Positions 1-44,719 of a DNA stretch of 64,000 bases are shown in pieces. Each line of letters opens with the position of its first letter. Positions within the stretch are counted from its first letter, which is position 1. The DNA comes from Saccostrea cucullata. Its lineage: Eukaryota. The position numbers and the translations under genes were made by a program. Location of the stretch: contig NW_026936106.1 in assembly GCF_032062105.1 (NCBI RefSeq), positions 1-64,000 on the forward strand, in the 5' to 3' direction. The notes beneath the pieces were generated by a model that made no database searches, had not been told where the DNA came from, and worked only from the letters and a program-made list of their open reading frames with translations.

Positions 1-654
1 GGAAATCTACCGTCCAGGTATTTTTGAGGGACCGTCTCAAAATACAGGTACATTTACTGTAGGATTATATAGGAAAATGCCAATTTTTAGCACTTTAAAG
101 CAAATTATACAAATACTACAATAGACTTTTTGTTCAAACTATAATATTTGATGATTAATACTATATTATACAAAATATATATAAGAAACACAAAATTCTA
201 CCGTCTTGTTACCAGAGGGGGAATCTCAAAATGCAAAAAATTAGCAAATTTTACTATTGTTATGGAGTATTACAAAATATGACGTACACAATGGATTCAC
301 ATGAAAACATAATGAAAATATTGAAGATATTCTCAAATTTCTATGTTTTAAATTTCAAGAGCGTATGTTTATTACTTTTTCTTAAATAATATTTTATTAC
401 CCCTTTCTTTAAGAGCTACAGATTATCATAACGTCAAAAACACACTGCAACGACGTCAACATACTTATCAATTGCAAAATCGGTTAAAAAATCAGTTAAA
501 TCAAATTGTAATTACATTTTTATACCCATAATTTCTTAATTTTGTTTAATTTTAATAATTAAGCGAAAAAAGTTGCATTAAAACAGTAAATACGCTTCAT
601 TTTACTATGATGCGCGAAATATTGTGCATTGGAAACAATAGTCGGCCCCCTTAA

Positions 655-26700: not shown

Positions 26701-29270
26701 CCTTAATTCTAAGACTACAGTATTTCTAAGTACAAAATTCGGTTTTACTGCAGGTGTCACAACAGTATTAATTTCTGCTATATATTCTTACCAAAAATGC
26801 GCAAGTTTGAGCAGATGTAACTAATTCAAAACAAACTTCTGAGAAGTTTCCTTTTCAGATCTTGTAAAACCATTCTTTATAAAGATTTTAGTACCAAAAA
26901 ATACATAGCCATCCAGCAAGGCACGCAAGTTTGTTTCGGTCGAAGTCGAGCAGGTGCTTGAAAATCTAGTCCAGGGCCTAATCACACCCCACTCTTGACA
27001 GTATACAGAAAAATCAGCACGCCCTAAATTTTAATAAATCTGGTCAATACAGGAAGTTTACATGTTGTTTTTCATCTCATAAAAAAATTCAGCTCCAGTC
27101 TCATATCAAAATGCCCGAATCGGAAGGGAAGATTCTGGGATTATTTTTCGTCAGCCATGATTTGACGTGAACCAAAGTGTAATACTGTTATGACACCTAT
27201 AAGCCCTATGTTGACCAAACTGGCATTGATGATACATCTAAGGATGCACACTACCAGGCTTGCTTCGGATGTTGAATCTGACCTACATTTTCTGGAGTGA
27301 GTGAACAGGTTAAATATTTTGGTGCAGGTTTCATTTCCAAGTAACTATGAGCTCTTTAATGACCAAACTTGCATGGATGATACATCTAAGGATGCATTCT
27401 ACCAGGCTGGCTTTGGTTGCTGAATCAGAACTACATTTTCTGGATGAGTGAAGAGGTTAAATTTTTATGCAGGTTTTATTTCCAAGTAACTATGAACCCT
27501 ACAGTTGAGCAAACTTGCATGGATGATACATCTTAGGATGCACACTAATGGACTTGCTCCGGATGCTGAATTCGACATATATTTTCCAGAAATGGACCTC
27601 GTAAAAGTTATTGGTGCAGGTCTATTACCAAGAAACTCTAAAGCTTATATAAACCAATCTTGCACAAATGATGCATCAAGGGATGAAAACTCTCAAACTT
27701 GCGTCAGATGCTGAATTTTAATCACATTTTCATGATGAAGATTGAAGAACTAGGTTGAAGTTTTTATATACGTCTATTCCAAAGTATCAGATCAAAATTG
27801 CATACATTTTGCATTTTTGGATGTACACTCTTTGTTGAGTAATTGTGTGACTTTGCCTTACTTAAAGACAACATTCATTGAGATGAGCTCTGTAATTTTC
27901 TGATTACCAGTAACCTATGTTTATTTCATTAAATCAATCATAATCTATCTACATGTCTGCATTATTTCCATAATTTATAGTTGAATATTTTCATTTTTGA
28001 TACCATACAAATTGACAGTGTTTTAAAATTTACCAAAATAGCAAATTTTGACTCTGTCCTCTTTTCTGTTGAATCATGTAGAGTATCTTTATATTGAAAT
28101 AGGTACTGCAGTATCAGATTTGAAGAGAAAGTTATCAACAGATTCTGATGAACAGACAATAAAAAGAAAAAGAAATGAAGATACAAGTGGAACAAAGACT
28201 TTGATCAACAATAAGGCTTCAAATTCTACACAAATTCAAGAGAGCAATCACTCTCAAGCAAATAGAAAAACCACTCTCTCCTCTCCTCATTTCGATTCTG
28301 CAGCATCTCAAAAATTAACGGCTGCTAATGGAAATAAACTGGTGCACCCACAAAATGTGATCAATTCATTACATCGTAACAAACACATAAAAGATAATAA
28401 AAGAGACAGTAAAGCATTAGTGCAACAAAGACGATCATCAGAGGCTATGGGATCGGGTACCAGTAAAATTCCAGCTGGTCAGAGTACCAGTAAAATCCCG
28501 CTCTGTCCAGGTCACAGTAAGCCCTGCTCTATGACACAAACTAGGAAGAAGGGAGATAACTTCCTCCGATGGTTCTTTACATGTGGGGTCTATCCAAGGG
28601 CTAAGCAGTGCAAGTTCTTTAAGGTAAAATCAAAAATGTAAATTCACACTGTTCAGTAAGTTTTAAATGTTATTTTTTGTTTACAAGGTTTGTTTGTTGA
28701 TTTTGATAAGCATTCTATGCCTGAAAGGTGACTCAATGGCAGTGTTCTGCTGTTCAATCATCTTTCCAGATTTTTCAGTAACTATTCGATCAGTTGTCTG
28801 ACAGGAGCAGTTTTATCCTTTGTTAACGAGGCTGGGGCGTGGCAGCCATTTTCAGAGTATTTTGATCTCCTTTAAAAGAAGAGCTACATATAAAGATATA
28901 CAAAAATGATCAAATTTTAAACCTAAAATGTATGAATTTTTTCTTTGCCAAATGATAGTTGACAGCTTAAGATACAGTATCTAAAAAAATAAGTTAAATC
29001 TGGTGGTTAATTTGTGGTTAATTTGTTGACCCCCCAGCCTCCTTAATTACTGTGTTTTTTGTTTATTCATTACAATATTTCAAGTTCTTTATGAAGTTGT
29101 TTGTCTTTTAGTGGGCTGATGAGAGTTTTCCTATCTGTCCAACCCATGGAAAACCAGCCGCATTCAGAACAGTCCTAAAAGAGGGACCAAACAATGGGAA
29201 AAAATTCTTTGCTTGTCCACTACCAAAACAGAAGCAGTGCGGATTCTTTGAGTGGGCGGAGGGTTTCTAA
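17682..29270 (+). CDS. NEIL3: Endonuclease VIII-like 3 DNA glycosylase, 10 exons, 1710 nt / 569 aa. Exons: 17682-17780, 19277-19398, 19631-19774, 20171-20348, 21467-21502, 21768-21842, 22328-22494, 24188-24396, 28103-28623, 29112-29270
   Basis: MVEGPGC start (Val2 nucleophile), TLGKELFMYF, H2TH LLDQTILPGVGNIIKNEALFDSG, Fpg zinc finger, RanBP2 zinc finger, two GRF zinc fingers; all introns GT-AG with consistent phases; AATAAA at 29360. Confidence 0.96.
18290..18672 (+). mobile_element. Helitron/HINE-like non-autonomous element remnant with internal tandem units
   Basis: Three gcttagaatc(a/g)tcaa... units and a 3' hairpin aaggcccttgggcct followed by cttgt. Confidence 0.55.
18724..18832. repeat. 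Palindromic hairpin element
   Basis: ggaaatagtaaatttatg...ggaaactatttccc / gggaaatagtttcc...cataaatttgctatttcc. Confidence 0.75.
19277..19398 (+). CDS. NEIL3: NEIL3 exon 2 (VQTLGKELFMYFG)
   Basis: ccag acceptor, gtaaaa donor. Confidence 0.92.
19631..19774 (+). CDS. NEIL3: NEIL3 exon 3 (VHFLMAGSFRVN)
   Basis: acag acceptor, gtggga donor, phase 2/2. Confidence 0.9.
20171..20348 (+). CDS. NEIL3: NEIL3 exon 4 (H2TH)
   Basis: LDICSP...LLDQTILPGVGNIIKNE. Confidence 0.93.
21467..21502 (+). CDS. NEIL3: NEIL3 exon 5 (36 nt, ALFDSGIKPNSK)
   Basis: gtag acceptor, gtaagg donor; continues the H2TH motif. Confidence 0.88.
21768..21842 (+). CDS. NEIL3: NEIL3 exon 6 (LVKMTRDFSLIFYK)
   Basis: ttttcag acceptor, gtggga donor. 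Confidence 0.9.
22328..22494 (+). CDS. NEIL3: NEIL3 exon 7 (Fpg-type zinc finger CSQC...YCPICQ)
   Basis: ttag acceptor, gtgagt donor. Confidence 0.92.
22540..24058. mobile_element. Non-autonomous DNA transposon, GGCC termini, 3-bp TGA TSD (PIF/Harbinger-like)
   Basis: tga|ggcc...aaaatatctttgtttc...ccgaccc versus gggtcggtcgcgaaacaaaggtattttt...ggcc|tga. Confidence 0.7.
24188..24396 (+). CDS. NEIL3: NEIL3 exon 8 (RanBP2 zinc finger WTCEVCTLIN...CEAC)
   Basis: gacag acceptor, gtaagg donor. Confidence 0.92.
24560..25385. mobile_element. Degenerate TIR element nested in NEIL3 intron 8 (ends approximate)
   Basis: acgtcgcacacaaaattggggct versus agccccaatactatgcgcgacgt inverted match. Confidence 0.4.
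25458..27199. mobile_element. Composite: two direct 449-bp MITE copies (25458-25906, 26751-27199) flanking 844 bp, outer TA TSD (Tc1/mariner-like)
   Basis: Each copy has TIRs caggtgtcacaacagtatta / taatactgttatgacacct(g/a); removing the whole restores aactaTAagccc. Confidence 0.8.
28103..28623 (+). CDS. NEIL3: NEIL3 exon 9 (disordered linker and GRF zinc finger 1)
   Basis: PLCPGH...KKGDNFLRWFFTC...CKFFK. Confidence 0.9.
29112..29270 (+). CDS. NEIL3: NEIL3 exon 10 (GRF zinc finger 2, stop)
   Basis: WADESFPICPTHGK...KEGPNNGKKFFACP...CGFFEWA. Confidence 0.93.
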   Translation, partial: WADESFPICPTHGKPAAFRTVLKEGPNNGKKFFACPLPKQKQCGFFEWAEGF

Positions 29271-30317: not shown

Positions 30318-30979
30318 CAGGTCCAGTACAATCAGTACATTTAGCTACGTAGGTAGAATTACCTACGTAGCTTTATTTACCTACCTCAGGTAGCTTTTTT
30401 TAGCTATTTCAATGTAACTTTTCTTTTTATGGAAAAGAGACAAAAAATCGCAGTTAAATGACTATTGATGTTTATACTAGGGAGACTTTAAAAAACAATC
30501 CAAAGCAGAGATAGTTTAAACATTGCTGCGTTTGGTCTATTTAGAGCAAAACATGTAATTCCATTGTTTGGTTATCTGTCTGTGCGGTGAGGCATGACTG
30601 AGTATGATTACTTTACATTGTGCTGAATAATTGCCGACCTATTATCATGTTAACCAGAACTGGACTTCTTTGTCATTTCATTCATGTAGTAACTGCTCTA
30701 ACTGTCATACATAGCCCCAAACCTTTCAGAACTTTGATTGCAATTGCGCAGAAAAAGACATTTCTTCAAGAGGGAATTTTTCATGAATTGTTTTCAGATG
30801 AGTTCAAAGTTGAAAATGATCACTGCATCAATATGATAGTTTTTGCACACCATGAGAAAAATTGATTTTTTGTAGAATAAATTCATTTGGTAGCTAAATC
30901 AAGCTACCTGGGGTAGGTAAATAAAGCTACGTAGGTAATTCTACCTACGTAGCTAAATGTACTGATTGTACTGGACCTG
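30318..30979. mobile_element. MITE with ~80-bp TIRs (caggtccagtacaatcagtac...), candidate 5-bp TSD ATTAA
   Basis: Near-perfect TIRs, each containing an internal palindrome agctacgtaggta...tacctacgtagct. Confidence 0.85.
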
Positions 30980-30992
30980 ATTAATAAACAGT

Positions 30993-31519
30993 TGTGGCGA
31001 CTGTCTATCAGTTTCTTGAATGATCACACAGGTTTTTCCTTTTTCCATTTTATATACATATGCAAACATATAAACAGTACAAAAACAAACATACATTAGA
31101 CTGAAAGTAAGAAACATGCCACATTGGAAATAGTTACAACATACATATTATCTCAAAATCCTAGAAATATGTGTCTACTACTGCACAAGCTCTTCTATTA
31201 AGTCTACCTTTTACCTTAATTCTACAAGTGACTGAAATCTATATCAAAAACTTTAATTAAACGATCTGACTATCTCTGACTTCTGACGAACGTCTGCTAC
31301 ACTTCTGCTCTACTTATTTCCTGTTTCTAAAACTAGACAAAAGATAAACAAACGGACAAAAACGGAAACGGACTAAAAAATACACCATAAACTCTGACCT
31401 GACAAAAACGGACACATAAATAATTACACTTATGACATACAATAACAATGTCAGAAAATCATAATAAAATAGAAATGAATAGGAAATTAAACATTGTTAA
31501 TGTTAACACATTCACAACA
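30993..31519 (-). repeat. 3'-terminal LTR (527 bp)
   Basis: tgtggcgac...cacaaca on the + strand; about 6 differences from the LTR at 42005. Confidence 0.93.
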
Positions 31520-31539
31520 CTCCCGCGACCAAAAATGAA

Positions 31540-34500
31540 TCATGGTTTTAACCAATCTTTGATCTTCTCTACTGCTCTACAGGCGGCTCGTCTCTTAGGT
31601 CTCTCTTGTGGTGAGTCTCTAGCATCCGCTTCTGTTTTTGAATTGGTCACCGTGGGATTTTCGGATGAGACACTTTTATCACTTTCGGTACTTTGATCCT
31701 TCCTGTCATTGGACTCTGTTTCCTTTGAACACTCGATCGGATATAAAAGATTTAGTGGCCTATTAAGGGTCTTCTTATTTGGAAGTAAAACCTTTCCGGA
31801 ACGGATCTGTCCATCTCTGCTAACGGTCAGTTCACACACACGTCCTACTTTCCAGGTTCCACGCGGAAGTTCATCTTTAACCAACACCACATCTCCAATC
31901 CTTGGCTCCATACTGTGCTGAATTCTTCCTTCCTTCAGTCTGTATGCTGTTCTTTCTCGCAAACTCAGGAGATAGTCATCTCGCCAGGATTTCCAAAAGG
32001 CATCAAGATGTTTTTGTCCCTTCTTCCATGTCTGTAATAACTTCTCAGCACTGCTGATGTTAGGTAGATACTCTGTGTCCTCTGTATCTTCTTCTTCACT
32101 ATCAGGAATACCAATTTTAGGATTCAGTGTCAGGAAGTGAGCTGGTGTGAGAATTATGTTAGAATTTATGTCATCTCCCACATAAACTAATGGCCTTGAA
32201 TTAACAACTGCCTCAGTCTCTGCTAATAGAGTTCTTAGTTGTTCACTTGTAAGACACAGTTTCCCAATAGTTTTTCGTAGGCATCTCTTCACTACTCCAA
32301 TGAGACGCTCGTAGAAGCCTCCCATCCATGGGGCCAGTTCGACTATGAACTGCCATTTGATATCTTCATTTGCGATATAGCTCTGCACATCTGGATCCCT
32401 GACTGTTGAGGTCCAAATTTTCTCAAGCGCACTACTTGCCAACTTAAACTGGGAAGCATTGTCAGAGATAAGTTCTTTCGGTTTTCCCCATCGAGCAATG
32501 AATCGTCTCAAGCCAAGAAGGAACTCTTCAGTCGACATATCTTGCATAAGCTCGAGATGGATACCTCTGGTGACTAAACATGTGAATAGGCACACCCACA
32601 CTTTCTTGGTCCCAGTGTCTGTTTTCACATAAATAGGGCCGAAGTAGTCGACACCAGTGTAAGTAAATGGCGAAGCCTCATTCACTCTCTTCTTTGGTAA
32701 GGGTGGCATTACAGGCATTCTGTATGGTCCACCTTCATGTCGCTTGCATATACTACAATTCTGCAGTACTCTTCTCACTTGAGAACGTCCTTGAGGAATC
32801 CAATATGTCTGTCGGATTAAGGATAGTGTCTGAGATATTCCAACATGAAGTGATTTCCTGTGGTAACTGTCTATGAGTAGATCTGTCACATGATTTTTCT
32901 TTGGCAGTAAAATTGGTGTTCTAGCTCCTTCGGTCAGGTGTGCAGCTCCAAGTCGACCAACGCATCTTATAATTTTGTCTTCATCCAAAATGAGTCCTAA
33001 TTGGTTAACTAAGTTAAGCCTCTTTCCTTCTGTTAAAGCACTCTTTACTTCTTTATAGTTCTCATTTTGGATACTCCTTATCCAAAGTAACTTTGCCTCA
33101 CTCAGTTCTGTTGCAGTTAATGTACCAGAAAAGGATTTTTCCTTCTTAATTTTACTGATGAATCTAAGTATCCATGCCGATACTCTGACTAATTTAGCAA
33201 AGGACGAAAATTGCTTGTCGTCTAGGCTAAACGGTTTCTTGCATTCAGCAGGAGTGTCCGAGCATCCATGAGGATCCTCCCCCACTAACAGTTTGGTTTC
33301 ATACACTCTAGATTTCTTGTACTCTGAAGCAATAGCTTCACTGTGATTTTCACTCGGAGTTGGATTCCATATCGGCCACTGACTTTTGCTCTCTTTCAGC
33401 CATGCTGGGCCATTCCACCACTGTCTGTTTTCTTGCAATATTTCCACTGTACCACCTCTGGTAGCAATATCTGCTGGATTATCAGTAGAAGCCACATATT
33501 GAAATTCAAGGTCACTGCTCTTCTGAATTTCCTTCACTCTGTTTTCCACAAAAACTGTCAAGGGCTTCTTAGTCTTTATCCAATGTAAGACACACTGTGA
33601 GTCTGTCCAGAGTATTTTCTCACACACTGTTAGTTTTAGTTGACTGTGAACAAAGTTTAGACTCCTTACTCCAATGAGAACTGCTAGAAGTTCGAGACGA
33701 GGCATAGTAATTGTCTTTGTCGGTGCTAGACGAGTCTTGGAAAATACTAAGTTGCTGATGCTTGAATTGGTAGTTGTCATCTGAAGGTAAATGGCAGTCG
33801 CAAATGCTTTTGCAGATGCATCACAAAAACACAAAAGTCTGTAAGACACCTCTCCTGATAGTCCTATATATCTTGGAATCTGACACTTTGGAATCCCTCC
33901 TAAATCTGCTCTTATTTCTCGCCATTGTTGTATATCTTCTTCTGTGAGTGCTTCATCCCACTCAAGATTTTTCTTCCATAGAGTCTGAAGAAAAAATTTT
34001 GCCTTTAAAGTCACAGGTGTGAAAAATCCAAGAGGGTCGAATATTGACGCAACTACTTGGAGTACTTCTCGTTTGGTAACTGGTACTGTCTTACTCATAC
34101 AATTTCCACATGGCACTGAAAGTACATCCTCGATGAGATTCCAAGTCAATCCAAGTATTTTTAACTTTTCTCTAGCTGATTGATCTTCATCTGGTATGGT
34201 CTCATAAAAGTCCTTGGCATTAGATGCCCAATCTCTCAAGTTCATGGACATACTACTGAATATCTCCTTGGCTTCCTTGTATAGAATTTCTGCTTCTTGA
34301 ATGTTATCAACTCCTGTAATAACATTATCTACATAAATATTGTTTCGGATGTTTTCAGCTGTCTTGCTTTCATATGTACTAAGGTGATGGTCAACAGTTG
34401 CCGCAAGTAAGAATGGACTTGAGATCACACCAAAAGGCACTCTGCAAAATCTGTACACTTGTACATTGCTGTCTACTGTAGCCTTGTTAGCATCCTTCAA

Positions 34501-35057
34501 CCAGAAGAATCTAGTAGCATCACGGTCTTCCTCCTGTAAGCCAATTTGCAAGAACGCTTTCTCAATGTCTGCGGTTATTCCTATCTTCTTAAGTCTAAAG
34601 CGCATCAGAAGTCCACATAAATCATGCAGCATCACAGGTCCCCTGTGCAAACACTCATTCAAGCTGGTTTTCTTATGTCCTGACTTAGCCGATGCATCAT
34701 ACACAATCCTTACCTTTGTAGTAGGTTTGGTCAAATCTATCACTGCGTGATGAGGTATATAATGCTTAATACCTGTCTCTCTTTGTTGGGATGGAATTTT
34801 CTCTATAATTCCCTTTTTACACTGGTCCTGAATAATGTCATCATACTTGTGCAGTAAATCAGGGTTACACTGTAACTTGTGAAGTAGTGACTTTAGCCTT
34901 CCATATGCTAGTTCCCGATTTTCTGGTAACTCAGGATATTCTTCTTTCCACGGCCAGGTGACTTGGTATCTTTTGTTTTCCATTTTTAGTGTGCTGTTGA
35001 AATTTTTCAGCGCTTTCTCATCATCTGAAGTGTGGGGAGAATCTTGAATCCCAATAG
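31540..35057 (-). pseudogene. BEL/Pao pol (RT-RNaseH-integrase), 5'-truncated but open
   Basis: YVDN, FCDAS, VDYFGP, SDNA and GGFYERL motifs; homology to the full-length copy stops at 35057. Confidence 0.9.
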
Positions 35058-35119
35058 AATCCAAAGCTCTCCAAACCTGTGTGATCAATGTGGCGACTGT
35101 CTATCAGTTTCTTGAATGA

Positions 35120-35485
35120 TCACACAGGTTTTTTCAGAATTGATAGGTTTTCTTGTAGTGCTTTCTCTAGAATAATCAGCTGATCTGTGTGTTCACTTGC
35201 TTTGGTCAATAAAAGAAACACCTTTTCACTGTCTTCACTAAATTTCTCTTCTTCGCCTTGTTTAAGCTCTTTGTCTTCTATTGCCAATGACCACTTCTCC
35301 ATTGTCTCTTCAAGTTTGGCACTGAATTCCTTTATACGTCTAATTGATGTTTCAACATTTTTTAGGAGAGCCGATGGATCCTCCTCTGAAATGTCGGCCG
35401 TCACAAATTCTTCACTCCTTTTCATCTCTTTATCTATAAGATTCCTGTACCTGGTACAGAGTCCCTTGAGATAGGTCACAGACAT
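35120..35485 (-). pseudogene. BEL/Pao gag N-terminal fragment
   Basis: Matches the first ~120 aa of the 1872-aa ORF, then runs into an LTR U5 piece and stops. Confidence 0.9.
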
Positions 35486-35747
35486 TTTCTTTTAGTTGAG
35501 TCAACACAATACGAAAGCTTTTTGGTTCCCACAACGGCTTCCCGGGTTCCGGCACCAATCAGTTGCAGTCCGCCTTATCTCTTATTTCAAAATTTGCAAA
35601 TGAATTTTTACTGGAAGCATTATGGACATTTTCTGACTGCAGTGCTTTGGATTTCCAAGATTGTTGTGAATGTGTTAACATTAACAATGTTTAATTTATT
35701 TTCTATATTATTTTAATTTATTTATATAAAGTGTAAGATTCAATCAA

Positions 35748-36288
35748 TGTGGCGACTGTCTATCAGTTTCTTGAATGATCACACAGGTTTTTCCTTTTTC
35801 CATTTTATATGCATATGCAAACATATAAACAGTACAAAACAAATATACATTAGACTGAAAGTAAGAAACATGCCACATTGGAAATAGTTACAACATGCAT
35901 ATTATCTCAAAATCCTAGAAATATGTGTCTACTACTGCACAAGCTCTTCTATTAAGTCTACCTTTTACCTTAATTCTACAAGTGACTGAAATCTATATCA
36001 AAAAACTTTAATTAAACGATCTGACTATCTCTGACTTCTGACGAACGTCTGCTACACTTCTGCTCTACTTATTTCCTGTTTCTAAAACTAGACAAAAGAT
36101 AAACAAACGGACAAAAACGGAAAAGGACTAAAAAATACACTATATACTTTAACCTGATAAAAACGGACACATAAACAATTACATTTAGGATATAAAATAC
36201 AATAACAACAATCTTACACTTTATATCAATAAATCAAAATAATATAGAAAATAAATTAAACATTGTTAATGGTGACACATTCACAACA
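35748..36288 (-). repeat. Internal LTR (541 bp, variant U3)
   Basis: TG...CA; U3 half differs from the LTRs at 30993 and 42005. Confidence 0.92.
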
Positions 36289-36308
36289 CTCCCACGACCA
36301 AAATTGAA

Positions 36309-39300
36309 TCAAGGGTTTAACCAGTTCTTGATCTTGTCTACTGCTCTACAGGCGGCTTGTCTCTTAGGTCTCTCTTGTGGTGAGTCTCTAACATCCGCTT
36401 CTGTTTTTGAATTGGTCACCATGGGATTTTCGGATGAGACACTTTTATCACTTTCGGTACTTTGATCCTTCCTGTCATTGGACTCTGTTTCCTTTGAACA
36501 CTCGATCGGATATAAAAGATTTAGTGGCCTATTAAGGGTCTTCTTATTTGGAAGTAAAACCTTTCCGGAACGGATCTGTCCATCTCGACTAACAGTCAGT
36601 TCACACAAACGTCCTACTTTCCAGGTTCCACGCGGAAGTTCATCTTTAACCAACACCACATCTCCCATCCTTGGCTCCATACTGTGCTGAATTCTTCCTT
36701 CCTTCAGTCTGTATGCTGTTCTTTCTCGCAAACTCAGGAGATAGTCATCTCGCCAAGATTTCCAAAAGGCATCAAGATGTTTTTGTCCCTTCTTCCATGT
36801 CTGTAATAACTTCTCAGCACTGCTGATGTTAGGTATATACTCTGTGTCCTCGGTATCTTCTTCTTCACTATCAGGAATACCAATTTTAGGATTCAGTGTC
36901 AGGAAGTGAGCTGGTGTGAGAATTATGTTAGAATTTATGTCATCTCCCACATAAACTAATGGCCTTGAATTAACAACTGCCTCTGTCTCTGCTAATAGAG
37001 TTCTTAGTTGTTCACTTGTAAGACACAGCTTCCCAATAGCTTTCCGTAGGCATCTCTTCACTACTCCAATGAGACGCTCGTAGAAGCCTCCCATCCATGG
37101 GGCCAGTTCGACTATGAACTGCCATTTGATATCTTCATTTGCGATATAGCTCTGCACATCTGGATCCCTGACTGTTGAGGTCCAAATTTTCTCTAGCGCA
37201 CTACTTGCCAACTTAAACTGGGAAGCATTGTCAGAGATAAGTTCTTTCGGTTTTCCCCATCGAGCAATGAATCGTCTCAAGCCAAGAAGGAACTCTTCGG
37301 TCGACATATCTTGCATAAGCTCGAGATGGATACCTCTGGTGACTAAACATGTGAATAGGCACACCCACACTTTCTTGGTCCCAGTGTCTGTTTTCACATA
37401 AATAGGGCCGAAGTAGTCGACACCAGTGTAAGTAAATGGCGAAGCCTCATTCACTCTCTTCTTTGGTAAGGGTGGCATTACAGGCATTCTGTATGGTCCA
37501 CCTTCATGTCGCTTGCATATACTACAATTCTGCAGTACTCTTCTCACTTGAGAACGTCCTTGAGGAATCCAATATGTCTGTCGGATTAAGGATAGTGTTT
37601 GAGATATTCCAACATGAAGTGATTTCCTGTGGTAACTGTCTATGAGTAGATCTGTCACATGATTTTTCTTTGGCAGTAAAATTGGTGTTCTAGCTCCTTC
37701 AGTCAAGTGGGCAGCTCCAAGTCGACCAACGCATCTTATAATTTTGTCTTCATCCAAAATGAGTCCTAATTGGTTAACTAAGTTAAGCCTCTTTCCTTCT
37801 GTTAAAGCACTCTTTACCTCTTTATAGTTCTCATTTTGGATACTCCTTATCCAGAGTAACTTTGCCCCACTCAGTTCTGTTGCAGTTAATGTATCAGAAA
37901 ATGACTTTTCCTTCTTAATTTTGCTGATGAATCTTAGTATCCATGCCGATACTCTGACTAACTTAACGAAGGACGAAAATTGCTTGTCGTCTATGCTAAA
38001 TGGGTTCTTGCATTCAGCAGGAGTGTCCGAGCATCCGTGACGACCCTCCCCCACTAACAGTTTGGTTTCATACACTCTAGATTTCTTGTACTCTGAAGCA
38101 ATAGCTTCACTGTGATTTTCACTCGGAGTTGGATTCCATATCGGCCACTGACTTTTGCTTTCTTTCAGCCATGCTGGGCCATTCCACCACTGTCTGTTTT
38201 CTTTCAATATTTCCACTGTACTACCTCTGGTAGCAATATCTGCTGGATTATCAGTAGAAGCCACATATTGAAATTCAAGGTCACTGCTCTTCTGAATTTC
38301 CTTCACTCTGTTCTCCACAAAAACTGTCAAGGGCTTCTTAGTCTTTATCCAATGTAAAACACACTGCGAGTCTGTCCAGAGTATTTTCGCACACACTGTT
38401 AGTTTTAGTTGACTCTGAACGAAGTTTAGGCTCCTTACTCCAATGAGAAGTGCTAGAAGTTCAAGACGAGGCATGGTAATTGTCTTTGTCGGTGCTAGAC
38501 GAGTCTTGGAAAATAACAAGTTGCTGATGCTTGAATTGGTAGTTGTCATCTGAAGGTAAATGGCAGTGGCAAATGCCTTTGCAGATGCGTCACAAAAACA
38601 CAAAAGTCTGTAAGACACCTCTCCTGACAGTCCTATATATCTTGGAATCTGACCCTTTGGAATCCCTCCTAAATCTGCTCTTATCTCTCTCCACTGCTGT
38701 ATATATTCTTCTGTGAGTGCTTCATCCCACTCAAAATTTTTCTTCCACAGAGTCTGAAGAAAAAGTTTTGCCTTTAATGTCACAGGTGTGAAAAATCCAA
38801 GAGGGTCGAATATTGATGCAACTACTTGGAGTACTTCTCGTTTGGTAACTGGTTCTGTCTTACTCATACAATTTCCACATGGCACTGAAAGTACATCCTC
38901 CATAAGATTCCAAGTCAATCCAAGTATTTTTAACTTTTCTCTAGCTGATTGATCTTCATCAGGTATGGTCTCATAAAAGTCCTTGGCATTAGATGCCCAA
39001 TCTCTCAAGTTCATGGATATACTACTGAATATCTCCTTGGCCTCCCTGTATAGAATTTCTGCTTCTTGAATGTTATCAACTCCTGTAATAACATTATCTA
39101 CATAAATATTGTTTCGGATGTTTTCAGCTGTCTTGCTTTCATATGTACTAAGGTGATGGTCAATAGTTGCCGCAAGTAAGAATGGACTTGAGATCACACC
39201 AAAAGGCACTCTGCAAAATCTGTACACTTGTACATTGCTGTCTACTGTAGCCTTGTTAGCATCCTTCAACCAGAAGAATCTAGTAGCATCACGGTCTTCC

Positions 39301-41927
39301 TCCTGTAAGCCAATTTGTAAGAACGCTTTCTCAATGTCTGCTGTTATTCCTATCTTCTTAAGTCTAAAGCGCATCAGAAGTCCACATAAATCATGCAGCA
39401 TCACAGGTCCCCTGTGCAAACACTCATTCAAGCTGGTTTTCTTATGTCCTGACTTAGCCGATGCATCATACACAATCCTTACCTTTGTAGTAGGTTTGGT
39501 CAAATCTATCACTGCATGATGAGGTATATAATGCTTAATACCTGTCTCTCTTTGTTGGGATGGAATTTTCTCTATAATTCCCTTTTTACACTGGTCCTGA
39601 ATAATGTCATCATACTTGTGCAGTAAATCAGGGTTACACTGTAACTTGTGAAGTAGGGACTTTAGCCTTCCATACGCTAGTTCCCGATTTTCTGGTAGCT
39701 CAGGAAATTCTTCTTTCCATGGCCAGGTGACTTGATATCTTTTGTTTTCCATTTTCAGTGTGCTGTTGAAATTTTTCAGCGCTTTCTCATCATCTGAAGT
39801 GTGGGGAGAATCTTGAATCCCAATAGTCTCCAGCTTCCAGAATTCATCAATAGAAGGTTTAAATGGCAAGTACTCATCCACGGCAGAATGAAGGCAACAC
39901 TCTGTCAAAGATAAAGTTCCATTGGTTATCATCATCACTTGCTCCTCCTCTTTACTGTAAGCTTCTTGGGTCCTTCCAGTGAGAATCCACCCAAGTCTGG
40001 AAGCTAGTAAATAAAATCCCTTTTGAATTTCAATTCTTTCTGGCAAAATCAAATCCAGGTAATAATCATTACCTATCAGAATGTCAATTGTTGAGTTTTC
40101 AAAATTCACTGGTAGAGTGTCTGCTAACTGAAGATTTTTCCACAGACTTTGGCATTTCAATTGTACGTCCTTGGGGATAGGCTTCCTTTGTACTGTTCCT
40201 GTAATGCTGGGTACAACATTTGCTTCAATACTAAGATAAAGTCTATCTTTGAGTTTCATTTTCAGGGAAACTTTGGGTGTCTTCACAATCTTTGGCTTCT
40301 CTGCACCAAAAGTTATGAGGGAAATCTTCTCTGTCGTAAGAATCTTCAACTTTAATTTCTCAGCCAAGTTTTCTGTTATGTAGGTTCTCTGGGATCCTGA
40401 GTCCATGAGAAGTCTTGCTGGTTCTGAATTTTCTCCATTGTGGTTTGTCACCTCTGTTTGAGCCGTCTGCATCAAAACAATATCCCCTGATGATAATAAA
40501 CTATTCTCAGAACTCTGAGAAAAGTTTGAAGTCTCTTGTTTGCTACACACTTCCTCGGTCAAATGTGAACTTTCTCTCTGACGTACAGAAAACTTCTTAG
40601 GACACAAACTTCTGTGGTGGTCACGAGTCTGTCTACAGTGATAACATGCCTTATCCACTCTGCATTCCTTACTTCTATGTCCAGGCTTTAAGCAAATAAA
40701 ACACTTCCCTCTGAGTCTCTGTTTTCTATCCTCTATAGTTCTGTACTTTCTGCACTCATCTGTCCAATGTCTGCCCTCACAGAATGTACACACTGGAGGC
40801 TTCCCTGAAATTCCAGGCGGTCTGCTTTGTCTAAATGATGAGTCCTTAGTGGATATCACAAGGGCTTCTGCTGTAGTATGCTTTTCCTCATGTACAGGGA
40901 CACTAGAGGCTTGAATTTCTGACGATTCCTTGACTTTTATGTAGTTTTTCATCAACTCTCTCAATTTCTGAACTGTCCATTTTTCCTTTGGCCCTTTCTG
41001 TATTTCAAGCTGAAGCAGAGTTTCTTTAGGTAGCTTTGATGTTATCATTGAGACAAACACATCTTGGTTCACATCCTGATGTAACGCTTCTAGGCTCCTC
41101 AGATGTCTCTCGAGGTCATCATTTAACTTCCGCAGGCTTGACGTGTCATTTGTAGCTGACTGTGTATTAATGAGTTCTACATAATGTTTGTTGATAACTG
41201 ATTGGATGTCTCCAAACCTCTCTCTTAGAGTGGCAACAGCTACGTCATAGTTTTCATTTGAAAGTGAAAGTCCAGAAATAGCTTCTTGAGCTGCTCCTTT
41301 CAATTTGCTCTTTAGGTAATTAAATTTCTCTATGTTGGAGAGCTTTGGATTCTTATGAACAGTGGCCTCAAAGGCATCCCAGAATTCCTTGAACTTGATT
41401 TTGTCTCCACTGTAAGTAGGAAGTTCTAACTTGGGTAGTTTAACAGCTACCGGACCCGTCTTTGGAGTGTGTTGTTGAATCGACAACTCTTGAAAATGAA
41501 GTATCTGTTCCTGCATTCTCGCCTGTAAATGAATCATCTGTTCTAGTCTTGGGTCTGTCATTTCAGCAGGTTTTTTCAGAATTGATAGGTTTTCTTGTAG
41601 TGCTTTCTCTAGAATAATCAGCTGATCTGTGTGTTCACTTGCTTTGGTCAATAAAAGAAACACCTTTTCACTGTCTTCACTAAATTTCTCTTCTTCGCCT
41701 TGTTTAAGCTCTTTGTCTTCTATTGCCAATGACCACTTCTCCATTGTCTCTTCAAGTTTGGCACTGAATTCCTTTATACGTCTAATTGATGTTTCAACAT
41801 TTTTTAGGAGAGCCGATGGATCCTCCTCTGAAATGTCGGCCGTCACAAATTCTTCACTCCTTTTCATCTCTTTATCTATAAGATTCCTGTACCTGGTACA
41901 GAGTCCCTTGAGATAGGTCACAGACAT
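36309..41927 (-). CDS. Intact BEL/Pao gag-pol polyprotein (1872 aa)
   Basis: Gag KLPKLELPTYSGD, three Cys/His knuckles, protease LMDSGSQ, RT YVDN, RNase H, HHCC/DDE integrase and C-terminal domain in a single ORF. Confidence 0.95.
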   Translation of the reverse strand: MSVTYLKGLCTRYRNLIDKEMKRSEEFVTADISEEDPSALLKNVETSIRRIKEFSAKLEETMEKWSLAIEDKELKQGEEEKFSEDSEKVFLLLTKASEHTDQLIILEKALQENLSILKKPAEMTDPRLEQMIHLQARMQEQILHFQELSIQQHTPKTGPVAVKLPKLELPTYSGDKIKFKEFWDAFEATVHKNPKLSNIEKFNYLKSKLKGAAQEAISGLSLSNENYDVAVATLRERFGDIQSVINKHYVELINTQSATNDTSSLRKLNDDLERHLRSLEALHQDVNQDVFVSMITSKLPKETLLQLEIQKGPKEKWTVQKLRELMKNYIKVKESSEIQASSVPVHEEKHTTAEALVISTKDSSFRQSRPPGISGKPPVCTFCEGRHWTDECRKYRTIEDRKQRLRGKCFICLKPGHRSKECRVDKACYHCRQTRDHHRSLCPKKFSVRQRESSHLTEEVCSKQETSNFSQSSENSLLSSGDIVLMQTAQTEVTNHNGENSEPARLLMDSGSQRTYITENLAEKLKLKILTTEKISLITFGAEKPKIVKTPKVSLKMKLKDRLYLSIEANVVPSITGTVQRKPIPKDVQLKCQSLWKNLQLADTLPVNFENSTIDILIGNDYYLDLILPERIEIQKGFYLLASRLGWILTGRTQEAYSKEEEQVMMITNGTLSLTECCLHSAVDEYLPFKPSIDEFWKLETIGIQDSPHTSDDEKALKNFNSTLKMENKRYQVTWPWKEEFPELPENRELAYGRLKSLLHKLQCNPDLLHKYDDIIQDQCKKGIIEKIPSQQRETGIKHYIPHHAVIDLTKPTTKVRIVYDASAKSGHKKTSLNECLHRGPVMLHDLCGLLMRFRLKKIGITADIEKAFLQIGLQEEDRDATRFFWLKDANKATVDSNVQVYRFCRVPFGVISSPFLLAATIDHHLSTYESKTAENIRNNIYVDNVITGVDNIQEAEILYREAKEIFSSISMNLRDWASNAKDFYETIPDEDQSAREKLKILGLTWNLMEDVLSVPCGNCMSKTEPVTKREVLQVVASIFDPLGFFTPVTLKAKLFLQTLWKKNFEWDEALTEEYIQQWREIRADLGGIPKGQIPRYIGLSGEVSYRLLCFCDASAKAFATAIYLQMTTTNSSISNLLFSKTRLAPTKTITMPRLELLALLIGVRSLNFVQSQLKLTVCAKILWTDSQCVLHWIKTKKPLTVFVENRVKEIQKSSDLEFQYVASTDNPADIATRGSTVEILKENRQWWNGPAWLKESKSQWPIWNPTPSENHSEAIASEYKKSRVYETKLLVGEGRHGCSDTPAECKNPFSIDDKQFSSFVKLVRVSAWILRFISKIKKEKSFSDTLTATELSGAKLLWIRSIQNENYKEVKSALTEGKRLNLVNQLGLILDEDKIIRCVGRLGAAHLTEGARTPILLPKKNHVTDLLIDSYHRKSLHVGISQTLSLIRQTYWIPQGRSQVRRVLQNCSICKRHEGGPYRMPVMPPLPKKRVNEASPFTYTGVDYFGPIYVKTDTGTKKVWVCLFTCLVTRGIHLELMQDMSTEEFLLGLRRFIARWGKPKELISDNASQFKLASSALEKIWTSTVRDPDVQSYIANEDIKWQFIVELAPWMGGFYERLIGVVKRCLRKAIGKLCLTSEQLRTLLAETEAVVNSRPLVYVGDDINSNIILTPAHFLTLNPKIGIPDSEEEDTEDTEYIPNISSAEKLLQTWKKGQKHLDAFWKSWRDDYLLSLRERTAYRLKEGRIQHSMEPRMGDVVLVKDELPRGTWKVGRLCELTVSRDGQIRSGKVLLPNKKTLNRPLNLLYPIECSKETESNDRKDQSTESDKSVSSENPMVTNSKTEADVRDSPQERPKRQAACRAVDKIKNWLNP

Positions 41928-41981
41928 TTTCTTTTAGTTGAGTCAACACAATACGAAAGCTTTTTGGTTCCCACAACGGCT

Positions 41982-41999
41982 TCCCGGGTTCCGGCACCA
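41982..41999 (-). promoter_or_regulatory. Primer-binding site TGGTGCCGGAACCCGGGA (tRNA-Phe-like); further copies at 35540-35557 and 44226-44243
   Basis: 5 nt downstream of the LTR end; one mismatch (G:U compatible) to the complement of the tRNA-Phe 3' end TGGTGCCGAAACCCGGGA. Confidence 0.75.
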
Positions 42000-42004
42000 A
42001 TCAA

Positions 42005-42531
42005 TGTGGCGACTGTCTATCAGTTTCTTGAATGATCACACAGGTTTTTCCTTTTTCCATTTTATATACATATGCAAACATATAAACAGTACAAAAACAA
42101 ACATACATTAGACTGAAAGTAAGAAACATGCCACATTGGAAATAGTTACAACATACATATTATCTCAAAATCCTAGAAATATGTGTCTACTACTGCACAA
42201 GCTCTTCTATTAAGTCTACCTTTTAGCTTAATTCTACAAGTGACTGAAATATATATCAAAAACTTTAATTAAACGATCTGACTATCTCTGACTTCTGACA
42301 AAAGTCTGCTACACTACTGCTCTACTTATTTCCTGTTTCTAAAACTAGACAAAAGATAAACAAACGGATAAAAACGGAAACGGACTAAAAAATACACCAT
42401 AAACTCTGACCTGACAAAAACGGACACATAAATAATTACACTTATGACATACAATAACAATGTCAGAAAATCATAATAAAATAGAAATGAATAGGAAATT
42501 AAACATTGTTAATGTTAACACATTCACAACA
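42005..42531 (-). repeat. Internal LTR (527 bp)
   Basis: Near-identical to 30993-31519; shared between two units. Confidence 0.93.
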
Positions 42532-42551
42532 CTCCCGCGACCAAAAATGAA

Positions 42552-44161
42552 TCATGGTTTTAACCAATCTTTGATCTTCTCTACTGCTCTACAGGCGGCT
42601 CGTCTCTTAGGTCTCTCTTGTGGTGAGTCTCTAGCATCCGCTTCTGTTTTTGAATTGGTCACCGTGGGATTTTCGGATGAGACACTTTTATCACTTTCGG
42701 TACTTTGATCCTTCCTGTCATTGGACTCTGTTTCCTTTGAACACTCGATCGGATATAAAAGATTTAGTGGCCTATTAAGGGTCTTCTTATTTGGAAGTAA
42801 AACCTTTCCGGAACGGATCTGTCCATCTCTGCTAACGGTCAGTTCACACACACGTCCTACTTTCCAGGTTCCACGCGGAAGTTCATCTTTAACCAACACC
42901 ACATCTCCAATCCTTGGCTCCATACTGTGCTGAATTCTTCCTTCCTTCAGTCTGTATGCTGTTCTTTCTCGCAAACTCAGGAGATAGTCATCTCGCCAGG
43001 ATTTCCAAAAGGCATCAAGATGTTTTTGTCCCTTCTTCCATGTCTGTAATAACTTCTCAGCACTGCTGATGTTAGGTAGATACTCTGTGTCCTCTGTATC
43101 TTCTTCTTCACTATCAGGAATACCAATTTTAGGATTCAGTGTCAGGAAGTGAGCTGGTGTGAGAATTATGTTAGAATTTATGTCATCTCCCACATAAACT
43201 AATGGCCTTGAATTAACAACTGCCTCAGTCTCTGCTAATAGAGTTCTTAGTTGTTCACTTGTAAGACACAGTTTCCCAATAGTTTTTCGTAGGCATCTCT
43301 TCACTACTCCAATGAGACGCTCGTAGAAGCCTCCCATCCATGGGGCCAGTTCGACTATGAACTGCCATTTGATATCTTCATTTGCGATATAGCTCTGCAC
43401 ATCTGGATCCCTGACTGTTGAGGTCCAAATTTTCTCAAGCGCACTACTTGCCAACTTAAACTGGGAAGCATTGTCAGAGATAAGTTCTTTCGGTTTTCCC
43501 CATCGAGCAATGAATCGTCTCAAGCCAAGAAGGAACTCTTCAGTCGACATATCTTGCATAAGCTCGAGATGGATACCTTTGGATTTTTATGAACAGTGGC
43601 CTCAAAGGCATCCCAGAATTCCTTGAACTTGATTTTGTCTCCACTGTAAGTAGGAAGTTCTAACTTGGGTAGTTTAACAGCTACCGGGCCCGTCATTGGA
43701 GTGTGTTGTTGAATCGACAACTCTTGAAAATGAAGTATCTGTTCCTGCATTCTCGTCTGTAAATGAATCATCTGTTCTAGTCTTGGGTCTGTCATTTCAG
43801 TAGGTTTTTTCAGCATTGATAGGTTTTCTTGTAGTGCTTTCTCTAGAATAATCAGCTGATCTGTGTGTTCACTCGCTTCGGTCAATAGAAGAAACACCTT
43901 TTCACTGTCTTCACTAAATTTCTCTTCTTCACCTTGTTTGGGCTCTTTGTCTTCTATCGCCAATGACCACTTCTCCATTGTCTCTTCAAGTTTAGCACTG
44001 AATTCCTTTATACGTCTAATTGATGTTTCCACATTTTTTAGGAGAGCCGATGGATCCTCCTCTGAAATGTCTGCCGTCACAAATTCTTCACTCTTTTTCA
44101 TCTCTTTATCTATAAGATTCCTGTACCTGGTACAGAGTCCCTTGAGATACGTTACTGACAT
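42552..44161 (-). pseudogene. Internally deleted BEL/Pao unit: gag 5' part fused out of frame to the integrase 3' part (junction ~43577)
   Basis: ORFs 43520-44161 and 42552-43559; junction ggatac-ct-ttggat. Confidence 0.9.
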
Positions 44162-44248
44162 TTTCTTTTACTTACTTTTAGTTTGGTTAACACAATACGA
44201 AAGCTTTTTCGTTCCCTCAACGGTCTCCCGGGTTCCGGCACCAATCAA

Positions 44249-44574
44249 TGTGGCGACTGACTACTGATCCTGAATATAACACTGTTTTCTAGTTTCACAT
44301 TTATTTAATAAACATGATAAACAAGCACATAAACATTCAACGATCTACCTTTCTATCTTCTGCTCTACTTATTTCCTGTTTCTAAAACTAGACAAAAGAT
44401 AAACAAACGGACAAAAACGGAAACGGACTAAAAAATACACCATAAACTCTGACCTGACAAAAACGGACACATAAATAATTACACTTATGACATACAATAA
44501 CAATGTCAGAAAATCATAATAAAATAGAAATGAATAGGAAATTAAACATTGTTAATGTTAACACATTCACAACA
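44249..44574 (-). repeat. 5'-terminal LTR (326 bp, chimeric, different U5)
   Basis: 44357-44574 matches the 30993 LTR; ~44260-44356 does not. Confidence 0.88.
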
Positions 44575-44719
44575 ACAGTTGCGTCATTCTAAAAGACAGC
44601 CAAAATCAGGGGCCATAAAAGAGTCTTACCCATCTTGTCCTTTATAATTATATATAAAAACAAACAAACTGTATGTTGAATGAAATAAGTTAGCCAAAAC
44701 ATGATTCTACATTGTATAT

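What the first reader, a model, noticed from the sequence alone, without database searches (positions are those of the whole stretch)
30993..44574. 13.6-kb multi-unit BEL/Pao concatemer of different subfamily variants inside one target-site duplication
In element orientation: LTR-PBS-[gag variant B/integrase variant X deletion unit]-LTR-PBS-[intact gag-pol variant Y]-LTR-[foreign insert]-PBS-[gag Y fragment/patch/pol X]-LTR. ACAGT occurs only at the outer ends, and no internal TSDs are visible, so this is not nested insertion. The units are distinct variants (C-termini KIKDWLKP vs KIKNWLNP, different U3s), so it is not simple local duplication either. Inference: several cDNAs/RNAs were joined through shared LTRs, before integration or by recombination into a resident LTR, giving defective units physically linked to an intact helper.
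Basis: partly seen in the sequence, partly recalled or inferred. Interest (0 to 1): 0.75.

Follow-up and report, generated by a model that had tools for sequence, protein, structure and literature searches.

The report
Retrotransposon chain joined by host mRNA
Three differing copies of a jumping gene sit head-to-tail in one insertion site, and one joint holds an intron-free 100-base piece of a host gene right beside the priming site, so the chain was likely stitched together during reverse transcription and likely inserted in one step.

Summary
The array is real in the assembly: four LTRs and three BEL/Pao bodies lie between one 5-bp duplication (ACAGT), and the empty site exists on the other haplotig and in a second sample. 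'Gag B' and 'integrase X' are one short-LTR lineage, so unit 1 is mainly a 4-kb deletion derivative. The 'foreign insert' was solved: an inverted 79-bp LTR tip plus 81+23 bases from two exons of one host locus, joined exactly at GT/AG across a 7,154-bp intron and entering the element by a 4-base match at the primer-binding-site edge. That joint therefore most likely had an RNA template. Three non-homologous breakpoints fall at the cDNA end beside the PBS; a second locus (C10278) shows the same marks. Best reading: failed or intermolecular strand transfers joined products of three or more RNAs before one integrase event (0.6); stepwise recombination of cDNAs into an integrated defective copy is the main rival (0.27). 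No spanning reads were available. Heterologous shared-LTR tandems and LTR-mediated mRNA capture are each published; their combination, which dates a tandem joint to reverse transcription, was not found in my searches. This scan noted PBS-end mRNA capture in another genome (e1-9503659).

The parts
44575..44579 (.). 5-bp target-site duplication, upstream copy (ACAGT on +)
   Evidence: single copy in empty allele
44249..44574 (-). L1, 326-bp LTR: short-type 1-168, long-type tract 184-210, short-type 219-326; first 218 bp identical to L4
44226..44243 (-). PBS 1, 18 nt complementary to host tRNA-Phe(GAA), after a 5-nt spacer
43575..44161 (-). Unit 1 gag 5' part (short-LTR lineage), truncated and out of frame at the deletion join
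42552..43576 (-). Unit 1 integrase 3' part after a 4.0-kb deletion with 2-nt microhomology; identical to unit 3 over the same stretch
42532..42547 (-). Polypurine tract 1
42005..42531 (-). L2, 527-bp hybrid LTR (short-type U3, long-type remainder), 6 differences from L4, 11 from L3 beyond nt 152
41982..41999 (-). PBS 2
36309..41927 (-). Unit 2 uninterrupted gag-pol ORF, 1872 aa (triple Cys-His, DSG protease, YVDN RT, RNase H, integrase)
35748..36288 (-). L3, 541-bp long-type LTR, preceded by PPT 2 (36289-36304)
35741..35747 (-). Spacer plus first 2 nt of the PBS, then break: the end expected of a cDNA/plus-strand product
   Evidence: 20-nt exact match runs to 35741
35662..35740 (+). Inverted LTR nt 1-79, identical to the LTR of dispersed copy C23200, not to any LTR of the array
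35581..35661 (-). 81 nt of host exon A, identical to C18592:391558-391638; genomic continuation is a GT donor
35558..35580 (-). 23 nt of host exon B, identical to C18592:398793-398815, preceded there by a pyrimidine tract and CAG; last 4 nt shared with the element spacer before PBS 3
35540..35557 (-). PBS 3, detached from its LTR by the insert
35125..35539 (-). Unit 3 leader and gag fragment, identical to unit 2 (0 differences in 437 bp)
35084..35133 (-). Last 45 nt of a long-type LTR plus the 5-nt spacer, entered by 9-nt microhomology, ending at the PBS edge
35056..35083 (+). Two inverted templated patches: 10-15 nt from the LTR end and 19 nt from gag at the position of the unit 1 deletion breakpoint
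31540..35057 (-). Unit 3 RT-RNase H-integrase frame without gag, protease or its own start context (mosaic, mostly short-LTR lineage)
30993..31519 (-). L4, 527-bp hybrid LTR, preceded by PPT 3 (31520-31535)
30988..30992 (.). 5-bp target-site duplication, downstream copy

Best explanation
This is a very recent three-unit BEL/Pao retrotransposon array inside one target-site duplication, with an intron-free host piece at one unit joint, that was likely assembled from the reverse-transcription products of three or more element RNAs and one spliced host RNA and then likely integrated once. Shown: the units come from at least two lineages; each internal and right LTR carries the U3 of the body just upstream of it; three breakpoints sit at the LTR/PBS edge; the host piece lacks a 7,154-bp GT-AG intron, lies in the same sense as the element RNA and shares 4 nt with the PBS edge. 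Inferred: a minus strand that had run out of template at the PBS switched onto the host mRNA and then onto an LTR tip; the plus-strand end of the unit 2 cDNA jumped onto that extended strand instead of onto its own PBS (intermolecular second-strand transfer, by the element's RT or with host alt-EJ); the clean joints at L1 and L2 would be the successful form of the same transfer; integrase then used the two outer TG..CA ends. The defective units are passengers, with no sign of further mobility.
For: TSD plus colinear empty allele. Exact, unique 19-mer hit 7.15 kb downstream of the 81-mer, with GT and CAG at the precise join (chance about 8e-9 before counting the splice sites); no intronless copy of that host piece elsewhere in the assembly. 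Breaks at the U5/PBS edge: 3 of 13 element-derived non-homologous ends, P about 5e-7, or 9e-5 if the two sides of the insert count once (rough binomial). Second locus C10278 in TSD ACAAC joins an LTR end +2 nt tail-to-tail to a piece that starts exactly at PBS nt 18 and ends in a 41-bp LTR tip. L2 and L3, which should be twins if unit 2 were a normal cDNA, differ at 11 sites beyond nt 152; a crossover into a resident L4-type LTR would have to fall in the last 63 of 376 shared bases. The family recombines at the RNA stage: mosaic pol, short LTR followed by a long-type leader from the PBS on in C8389. Recency: 0 differences in the duplicated integrase (1051 bp) and gag (437 bp) stretches; the host piece matches this genome's allele exactly while the other sample's allele has indels inside it.
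Against: The L1 and L2 joints are sequence-clean and fit later recombination into an integrated copy equally well. The model needs at least three element RNA 3' ends plus a fourth LTR source, more than the two RNAs per particle assumed in PMC1950507. No donor identical to unit 2 or to the hybrid LTR is in the assembly (best 97-98.5%). Three patches are antisense and need DNA or antisense templates, which host repair polymerases also use (PMC11724301, abstract). The host transcript itself was not observed and has no open frame or Pfam match (0 convincing of 62 frames scanned). No reads span the array.
Confidence: 0.6

Rival explanations
1. Stepwise growth: an aberrant RT product (unit 3 with the captured mRNA) integrated first and made the TSD; cDNAs of units 2 and 1 later recombined into its upstream LTR by integrase-independent annealing, as Tf1 does into Tf2.
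For: Left end identical to L4 over 218 bp; new units lie upstream of unit 3, the position reported for Tf1-Tf2 hybrid tandems (PMC11042837, passages); clean L1 and L2 joints.
Against: L3 shows no L4-type stretch before nt 465; L2 and L3 are not twins; the unit 3 patch is copied from the gag position where unit 1 is broken (about 2% by chance), which suggests one event; no intermediate allele in the two alleles seen.
Confidence: 0.27
2. Break repair in a resident element by host polymerases (Pol theta or a LINE RT) that patched in cDNA fragments and reverse-transcribed the host RNA; the element's own RT did not make the joints.
For: Short inverted, microhomology-bounded patches resemble fold-back templated insertions (PMC11724301, abstract); yeast breaks capture Ty1 cDNA pieces, singly or in chains of 2-4 (PMC11372161, passages).
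Against: The host RNA joins exactly at the PBS edge and in element sense; no poly(A) or flanking host DNA of any donor copy was captured; the same cDNA-end breakpoints recur at C10278.
Confidence: 0.07
3. Assembly chimera of two loci or haplotypes joined through the 0.5-1.6-kb internal repeats.
For: No spanning reads seen; one family copy is broken over two contigs (C8389 + C13997, shared GGCGC duplication), so this assembly can fail at these elements.
Against: Three other 6.4-7.6-kb copies are assembled whole; matching TSD and colinear flanks; no orphan LTR at 99-100% elsewhere among 43 matches (40 of 46 candidates scored); an assembler working on genomic DNA cannot create a spliced exon joint.
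Confidence: 0.05
4. Nested insertions or unequal crossover between sister LTRs.
For: Common routes to complex LTR loci (PMC1950507, PMC11899658).
Against: No internal TSD; units differ by 2.4-4% and in structure; cannot give a spliced insert.
Confidence: 0.01

Closest known systems
Template-switching complexes of plant LTR retrotransposons (Sabot and Schulman 2007, PMC1950507, whole text read)
   Same: Different family members share an internal LTR inside one 5-bp TSD; proposed to form during reverse transcription of co-packaged RNAs and to integrate once.
   Different: Those have two complete bodies and near-identical outer LTRs; here three bodies (two defective), outer LTRs identical only over 218 bp, and non-homologous joints at the PBS edge with a host RNA piece. 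Animal BEL/Pao rather than plant Copia/Gypsy.
Tandem LTR-RTs of rice, e.g. TLI1 (PMC11899658, part 2 of 6 and passages read)
   Same: Shared-LTR tandem in one TSD with diverged units (94% internal, 85-89% LTR identity), confirmed there by long reads.
   Different: That paper could not tell insertion-as-tandem from later recombination; here one joint carries an RNA-derived mark.
Tf1/Tf2 hybrid tandems by Rad52 single-strand annealing (PMC11042837, passages read); Ty5 tandems (Ke and Voytas 1997, seen only as a citation, not held)
   Same: Heterologous tandems separated by one LTR; PBS single strands at cDNA ends drive joining.
   Different: Integrase-independent insertion at a resident copy; no host mRNA at the joint reported in the passages read.
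LTR-mediated retrocopies of animals (Tan et al. 2016, PMC5131818, passages read)
   Same: Partial, intron-free host mRNA joined to LTR-element sequence at short microsimilarities, ascribed to RT template switching in the particle.
   Different: There the mRNA replaces part of the internal ORF of one element; here 100 nt sit between an LTR and a PBS at the joint of two units and have not spread.
alt-EJ-driven second-strand transfer of HMS-Beagle (bioRxiv 10.1101/2022.09.25.509424, parts 1-2 of 3 read)
   Same: Annealing at the PBS is the step at which the joints here map.
   Different: Described as intramolecular (1-LTR circles); the intermolecular, chain-forming version is my inference.

Membership tests
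BEL/Pao (Belpaoviridae) LTR retrotransposon | Triple Cys-His box in Gag (PMC554778, passages) | tested here: met
   Three boxes at aa 380, 409, 428 of unit 2
BEL/Pao (Belpaoviridae) LTR retrotransposon | Order Gag-PR-RT-RH-IN with DSG protease, YVDD/YVDN RT, DAS RNase H | tested here: met
   DSG 509, YVDN 942, CDAS 1112, integrase motifs 1433-1613; Pfam PF03564, PF05585, PF00078, PF05380, PF17921 in that order
BEL/Pao (Belpaoviridae) LTR retrotransposon | TG..CA LTRs, 4-6-bp TSD, tRNA PBS, PPT | tested here: met
   5-bp TSD at 9 of 14 other family ends examined; PBS matches tRNA-Phe genes, 4 of 4 loci scanned of 9 pattern hits
BEL/Pao (Belpaoviridae) LTR retrotransposon | RT phylogeny within BEL/Pao and clade assignment | not tested
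   No reference set in session
Template-switching complex (Sabot and Schulman) | Shared internal LTR and flanking TSD | tested here: met
Template-switching complex (Sabot and Schulman) | Outer LTRs near-identical | tested here: not met
   326 vs 527 bp, identical over the first 218 bp only
Template-switching complex (Sabot and Schulman) | Two complete core sequences | tested here: not met
   One complete, two defective bodies
LTR-mediated retrocopy (Tan et al. 2016) | Intron loss relative to the parental locus | tested here: met
   7,154-bp GT-AG intron absent
LTR-mediated retrocopy (Tan et al. 2016) | Microsimilarity at the switch points | tested here: inconclusive
   4 nt at the PBS side; at the other side only an indirect 5-nt match through an internal LTR repeat
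LTR-mediated retrocopy (Tan et al. 2016) | mRNA replaces part of the internal ORF of a discontinuous element | tested here: not met
   Insert lies between L3 and PBS 3 and replaces nothing
Integrase-independent tandem (Tf1/Tf2 type) | Pre-existing monomer at the site | tested here: inconclusive
   Only empty alleles seen, in 2 of 2 other alleles examined
Integrase-independent tandem (Tf1/Tf2 type) | Dependence on Rad52 annealing | not testable with these tools
   Genetic test

The most novel reading that the evidence does not exclude
The second-strand transfer at the primer-binding site can run between molecules and repeat, polymerising cDNAs from more than two RNAs (several particles or a multi-RNA particle) into an integrase-competent chain; when annealing fails, the stalled minus strand at the PBS is a hotspot for capturing host mRNA. 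Shared-LTR tandems in animals would then often be born as multimers, and their PBS joints would record it.
Probability: 0.35. Interest if true: 0.75.

Novelty: new variant of a known kind. Interest (0 to 1): 0.6.

Why it matters
Whether tandem LTR arrays are inserted as multimers or grow later by recombination is left open in the recent survey (PMC11899658). A spliced host fragment and cDNA-end breakpoints at a unit joint give a sequence signature that ties at least one joint to reverse transcription and can be scored genome-wide in long-read assemblies. It also shows that LTR-pair dating and LTR-finder annotation fail on such loci (outer LTRs of 326 and 527 bp in a brand-new insertion), and that in this family 2 of 6 two-ended copies are aberrant RT products that still got a clean TSD.

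Tried and rejected
Reads: only contigs of one other sample were available; it carries the empty allele, so nothing bears on the internal joints; low cover over 35170-35736 there is no evidence. My first idea that the host piece was an integrase-made LTR-host junction from another locus was dropped: C18592 is empty in the assembly and in the other sample, and the piece continues into a second exon. Searches for daughters of the three junctions found only the window, so the helper/non-autonomous-family idea has no support. The host gene could not be named: 62 of 136 listed frames were scanned, 2 sub-threshold Pfam hits judged noise. Eleven other partial family copies looked at show no further PBS-edge breaks except C272, which stops 9 nt into the PBS at an apparent later insertion and was not counted. 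Unexplained: the host exon shares 15 of 17 nt with the gag site where unit 1 is broken and from which the unit 3 patch is copied (6 of 3000 random host 81-mers do as well at any of 7 breakpoints; post hoc). A small antisense RNA that both slices this site and serves as patch template would explain it, but I have no small-RNA data (probability about 0.05). One L2 site (nt 163) does not fit a crossover at nt 211-218. Literature: 10 searches listed no paper on a multi-unit LTR tandem with a spliced mRNA at the PBS joint; the library lacks most subscription papers and no supplements were read (those of PMC5131818, PMC11899658 and the preprints could hold similar cases). No structure prediction or protein-database search was needed.
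Full report
Setting. The window is the first 64 kb of contig C18243 of a 1.17-Gb animal assembly that keeps alternative haplotigs (haplotig C11173 at 90-94% identity). Other notes of this scan call the organism an oyster; I did not test that. The array lies about 1.7 kb downstream of the last GRF-finger exon of a NEIL3-like gene, in opposite orientation, and 8 bp from a 662-bp inverted-repeat element.

Observation. Self-comparison and direct reading confirm four TG..CA LTRs, three PBS, three PPT and the ORFs described. ACAGT flanks both outer ends; it also occurs 13 times inside, never at an LTR end. The site is empty in haplotig C11173 and in contigs of all 4 runs of one other sample. The family makes 5-bp duplications: 9 of 14 other ends examined. 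Unit 2 has a 1872-aa ORF with the BEL/Pao hallmarks listed in PMC554778 (passages). The PBS is the exact complement of the 3' end of this genome's tRNA-Phe(GAA) genes.

Who the units are. The genome holds a short-LTR (326 bp) and a long-LTR (about 540 bp) lineage; other two-ended copies with a body are C13118, C22873, C23200, C10278 and the split pair C8389/C13997. Unit 1 gag and integrase differ from C13118 at 4/674 and 3/1043 sites, so B and X are one lineage and unit 1 is essentially a 4.0-kb deletion with 2-nt microhomology. Unit 2 differs from C13118 at 140/5716 and from C23200 at 191/5716; unit 3 pol differs from unit 2 at 94/3538. The integrase stretches of units 1 and 3 are identical (0/1051) and so are the gag stretches of units 2 and 3 (0/437). 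L2 and L4 are hybrids of short-type U3 and long-type remainder; L1 is short-type except for a long-type tract at nt 184-210, with the switch back in an 8-nt window (211-218). Each of L2, L3, L4 carries the U3 of the body upstream of it (3 of 3). L2 and L3 differ at 11 sites beyond nt 152. No exact donor of unit 2 or of the hybrid LTR is in the assembly.

The insert. After L3 the sequence runs through the 5-nt spacer and 2 nt of PBS, then breaks. Next come LTR nt 79-1 inverted, identical to C23200, 81 nt identical to C18592:391558-391638, and 19 nt whose only other match in the genome, with up to one mismatch allowed, is C18592:398793-398811, same strand, 7,154 bp further on. In the genome the 81-mer is followed by GT and the 19-mer is preceded by a pyrimidine tract and CAG; the match extends to 23 nt because the exon continues with the 4 nt that precede the element's PBS. 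Chance is about 8e-9 before counting the splice sites. No intronless copy exists in the assembly. So the insert is an exon-exon junction; that its template was a spliced RNA, copied in the sense of the element RNA, is the inference. The transcript has no open frame in this allele and no Pfam match and was not observed. The other sample's allele has indels inside the 81-mer while the captured piece equals this genome's allele, which, with the zero-difference duplications, makes the event very recent.

The unit 3 patch. Gag nt 438 jumps by 9-nt microhomology to the last 45 nt of an LTR plus spacer, stops at the PBS edge, folds back for 10-15 nt, copies 19 nt of gag in reverse and enters pol by 2 nt. 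Those 19 nt span the gag position where unit 1 is broken (about 2% by chance). In all, 3 of 13 element-derived non-homologous ends fall in the 8-nt window at the U5/PBS edge (P about 5e-7; 9e-5 if the insert counts once; rough). By established LTR biology this edge is where minus-strand synthesis starts, where it runs out of template, and where the linear cDNA ends.

Second case. C10278:13642-16188, inside TSD ACAAC, is a full LTR + 2 nt, 5 unassigned nt, an inverted piece starting exactly at PBS nt 18 (the plus-strand strong-stop end), a 6-nt microhomology jump into gag-pro-RT, and a 7-nt jump to a 41-bp LTR tip. Thus 2 of 6 two-ended copies with a body are aberrant in the same way. C8389 has a short LTR followed from the PBS on by a unit-2-type leader, and pol is mosaic: the lineages exchange at the RNA stage, as shown for Onsen (PMC5668417, abstract only).

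Mechanism. Shown: heterologous units, one TSD, breaks at cDNA ends, intron-free host piece joined at the PBS edge. Inferred (0.6): in one germ cell or oocyte several element RNAs were reverse-transcribed; a minus strand stalled at the PBS switched by 4 nt onto a co-packaged host mRNA and then onto an LTR tip; the plus-strand end of the unit 2 cDNA transferred onto it; clean transfers between molecules gave L2 and L1; integrase inserted the 13.6-kb product. alt-EJ is reported to drive the PBS annealing step in Drosophila (bioRxiv 10.1101/2022.09.25.509424, parts 1-2 of 3), so host repair may have made some joins; its role here is untested. The main rival (0.27) is that unit 3 integrated first and units 2 and 1 were added as cDNA, as for Tf1-Tf2 hybrids (PMC11042837, passages). 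L1 and L2 cannot tell these apart; L3 leans against the rival, since a crossover would have to fall in 63 of 376 shared bases. Host break repair with RNA templating (0.07) and misassembly (0.05) are less likely; one split copy shows that the assembly can fail at these elements, but an assembler cannot make a spliced joint, and no orphan LTR was found.

Comparison and novelty. It works like a template-switching complex (PMC1950507, whole text) but fails two of its defining features (identical outer LTRs, two complete bodies), and like an LTR-mediated retrocopy (PMC5131818, passages) but the mRNA sits at a unit joint. Shared-LTR tandems are common in plants (PMC11899658), Drosophila (10.1101/158386, passages) and, by the discussion of PMC11042837, bivalves. 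My 10 searches did not list such a case, within a library that lacks most subscription papers. Verdict: real, new variant of a known kind, interest 0.6; a single dead-end insertion so far (all three junctions single-copy).

Noticed in passing
G000:C10278:13642-16188 (L012:1143-3689): Second aberrant copy of the family in a perfect 5-bp TSD: full LTR, inverted PBS18+LTR end, gag-pro-RT piece, 41-bp LTR tip; integrase apparently accepted a 41-bp end.
   Followed up: yes
window 30318-30979: 662-bp non-coding inverted-repeat element (CAGG..CCTG) flanked by an ATTAA duplication, absent from the other haplotig and the other sample, 8 bp from the array's TSD.
   Followed up: partly
window 19896-20357, 28042-28623, 29130-29270: Exons of a NEIL3-like glycosylase gene (H2TH, two GRF fingers; Pfam hits below curated cut-offs); the array lies just downstream.
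   Followed up: partly
window 53128-61428: Tandem array of a 2.6-kb unit, about 3.2 copies at 99.8% identity, starting and ending on a 459-bp repeat and bracketed by inverted minisatellite blocks (51958-52183, 61427-61673); resembles a repeat-flanked transposon tandem.
   Followed up: no
window 25458-25905 and 26751-27198: 448-bp direct repeat at 99.3% identity, 845 bp apart, followed by a short tandem array.
   Followed up: no
G000:C8389:1-656 and C13997:4525-4969: One element split over two contigs (shared GGCGC duplication), with a short LTR followed by a long-type leader from the PBS on.
   Followed up: partly
G000:C22873:1011369-1019016 (L011): Near-complete copy whose gag holds two insertions of one ~620-bp inverted-repeat element.
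   Followed up: no
G000:C18592:391497-391638 and 398793-398878: Exon pair of an unnamed spliced host transcript, single-copy, no open frame in this allele; the other sample's allele has indels in exon A.
   Followed up: partly
G000:C10683, C22038, C13073, C3101 and others: A sister BEL/Pao family at about 67% DNA identity with a dozen copies.
   Followed up: no
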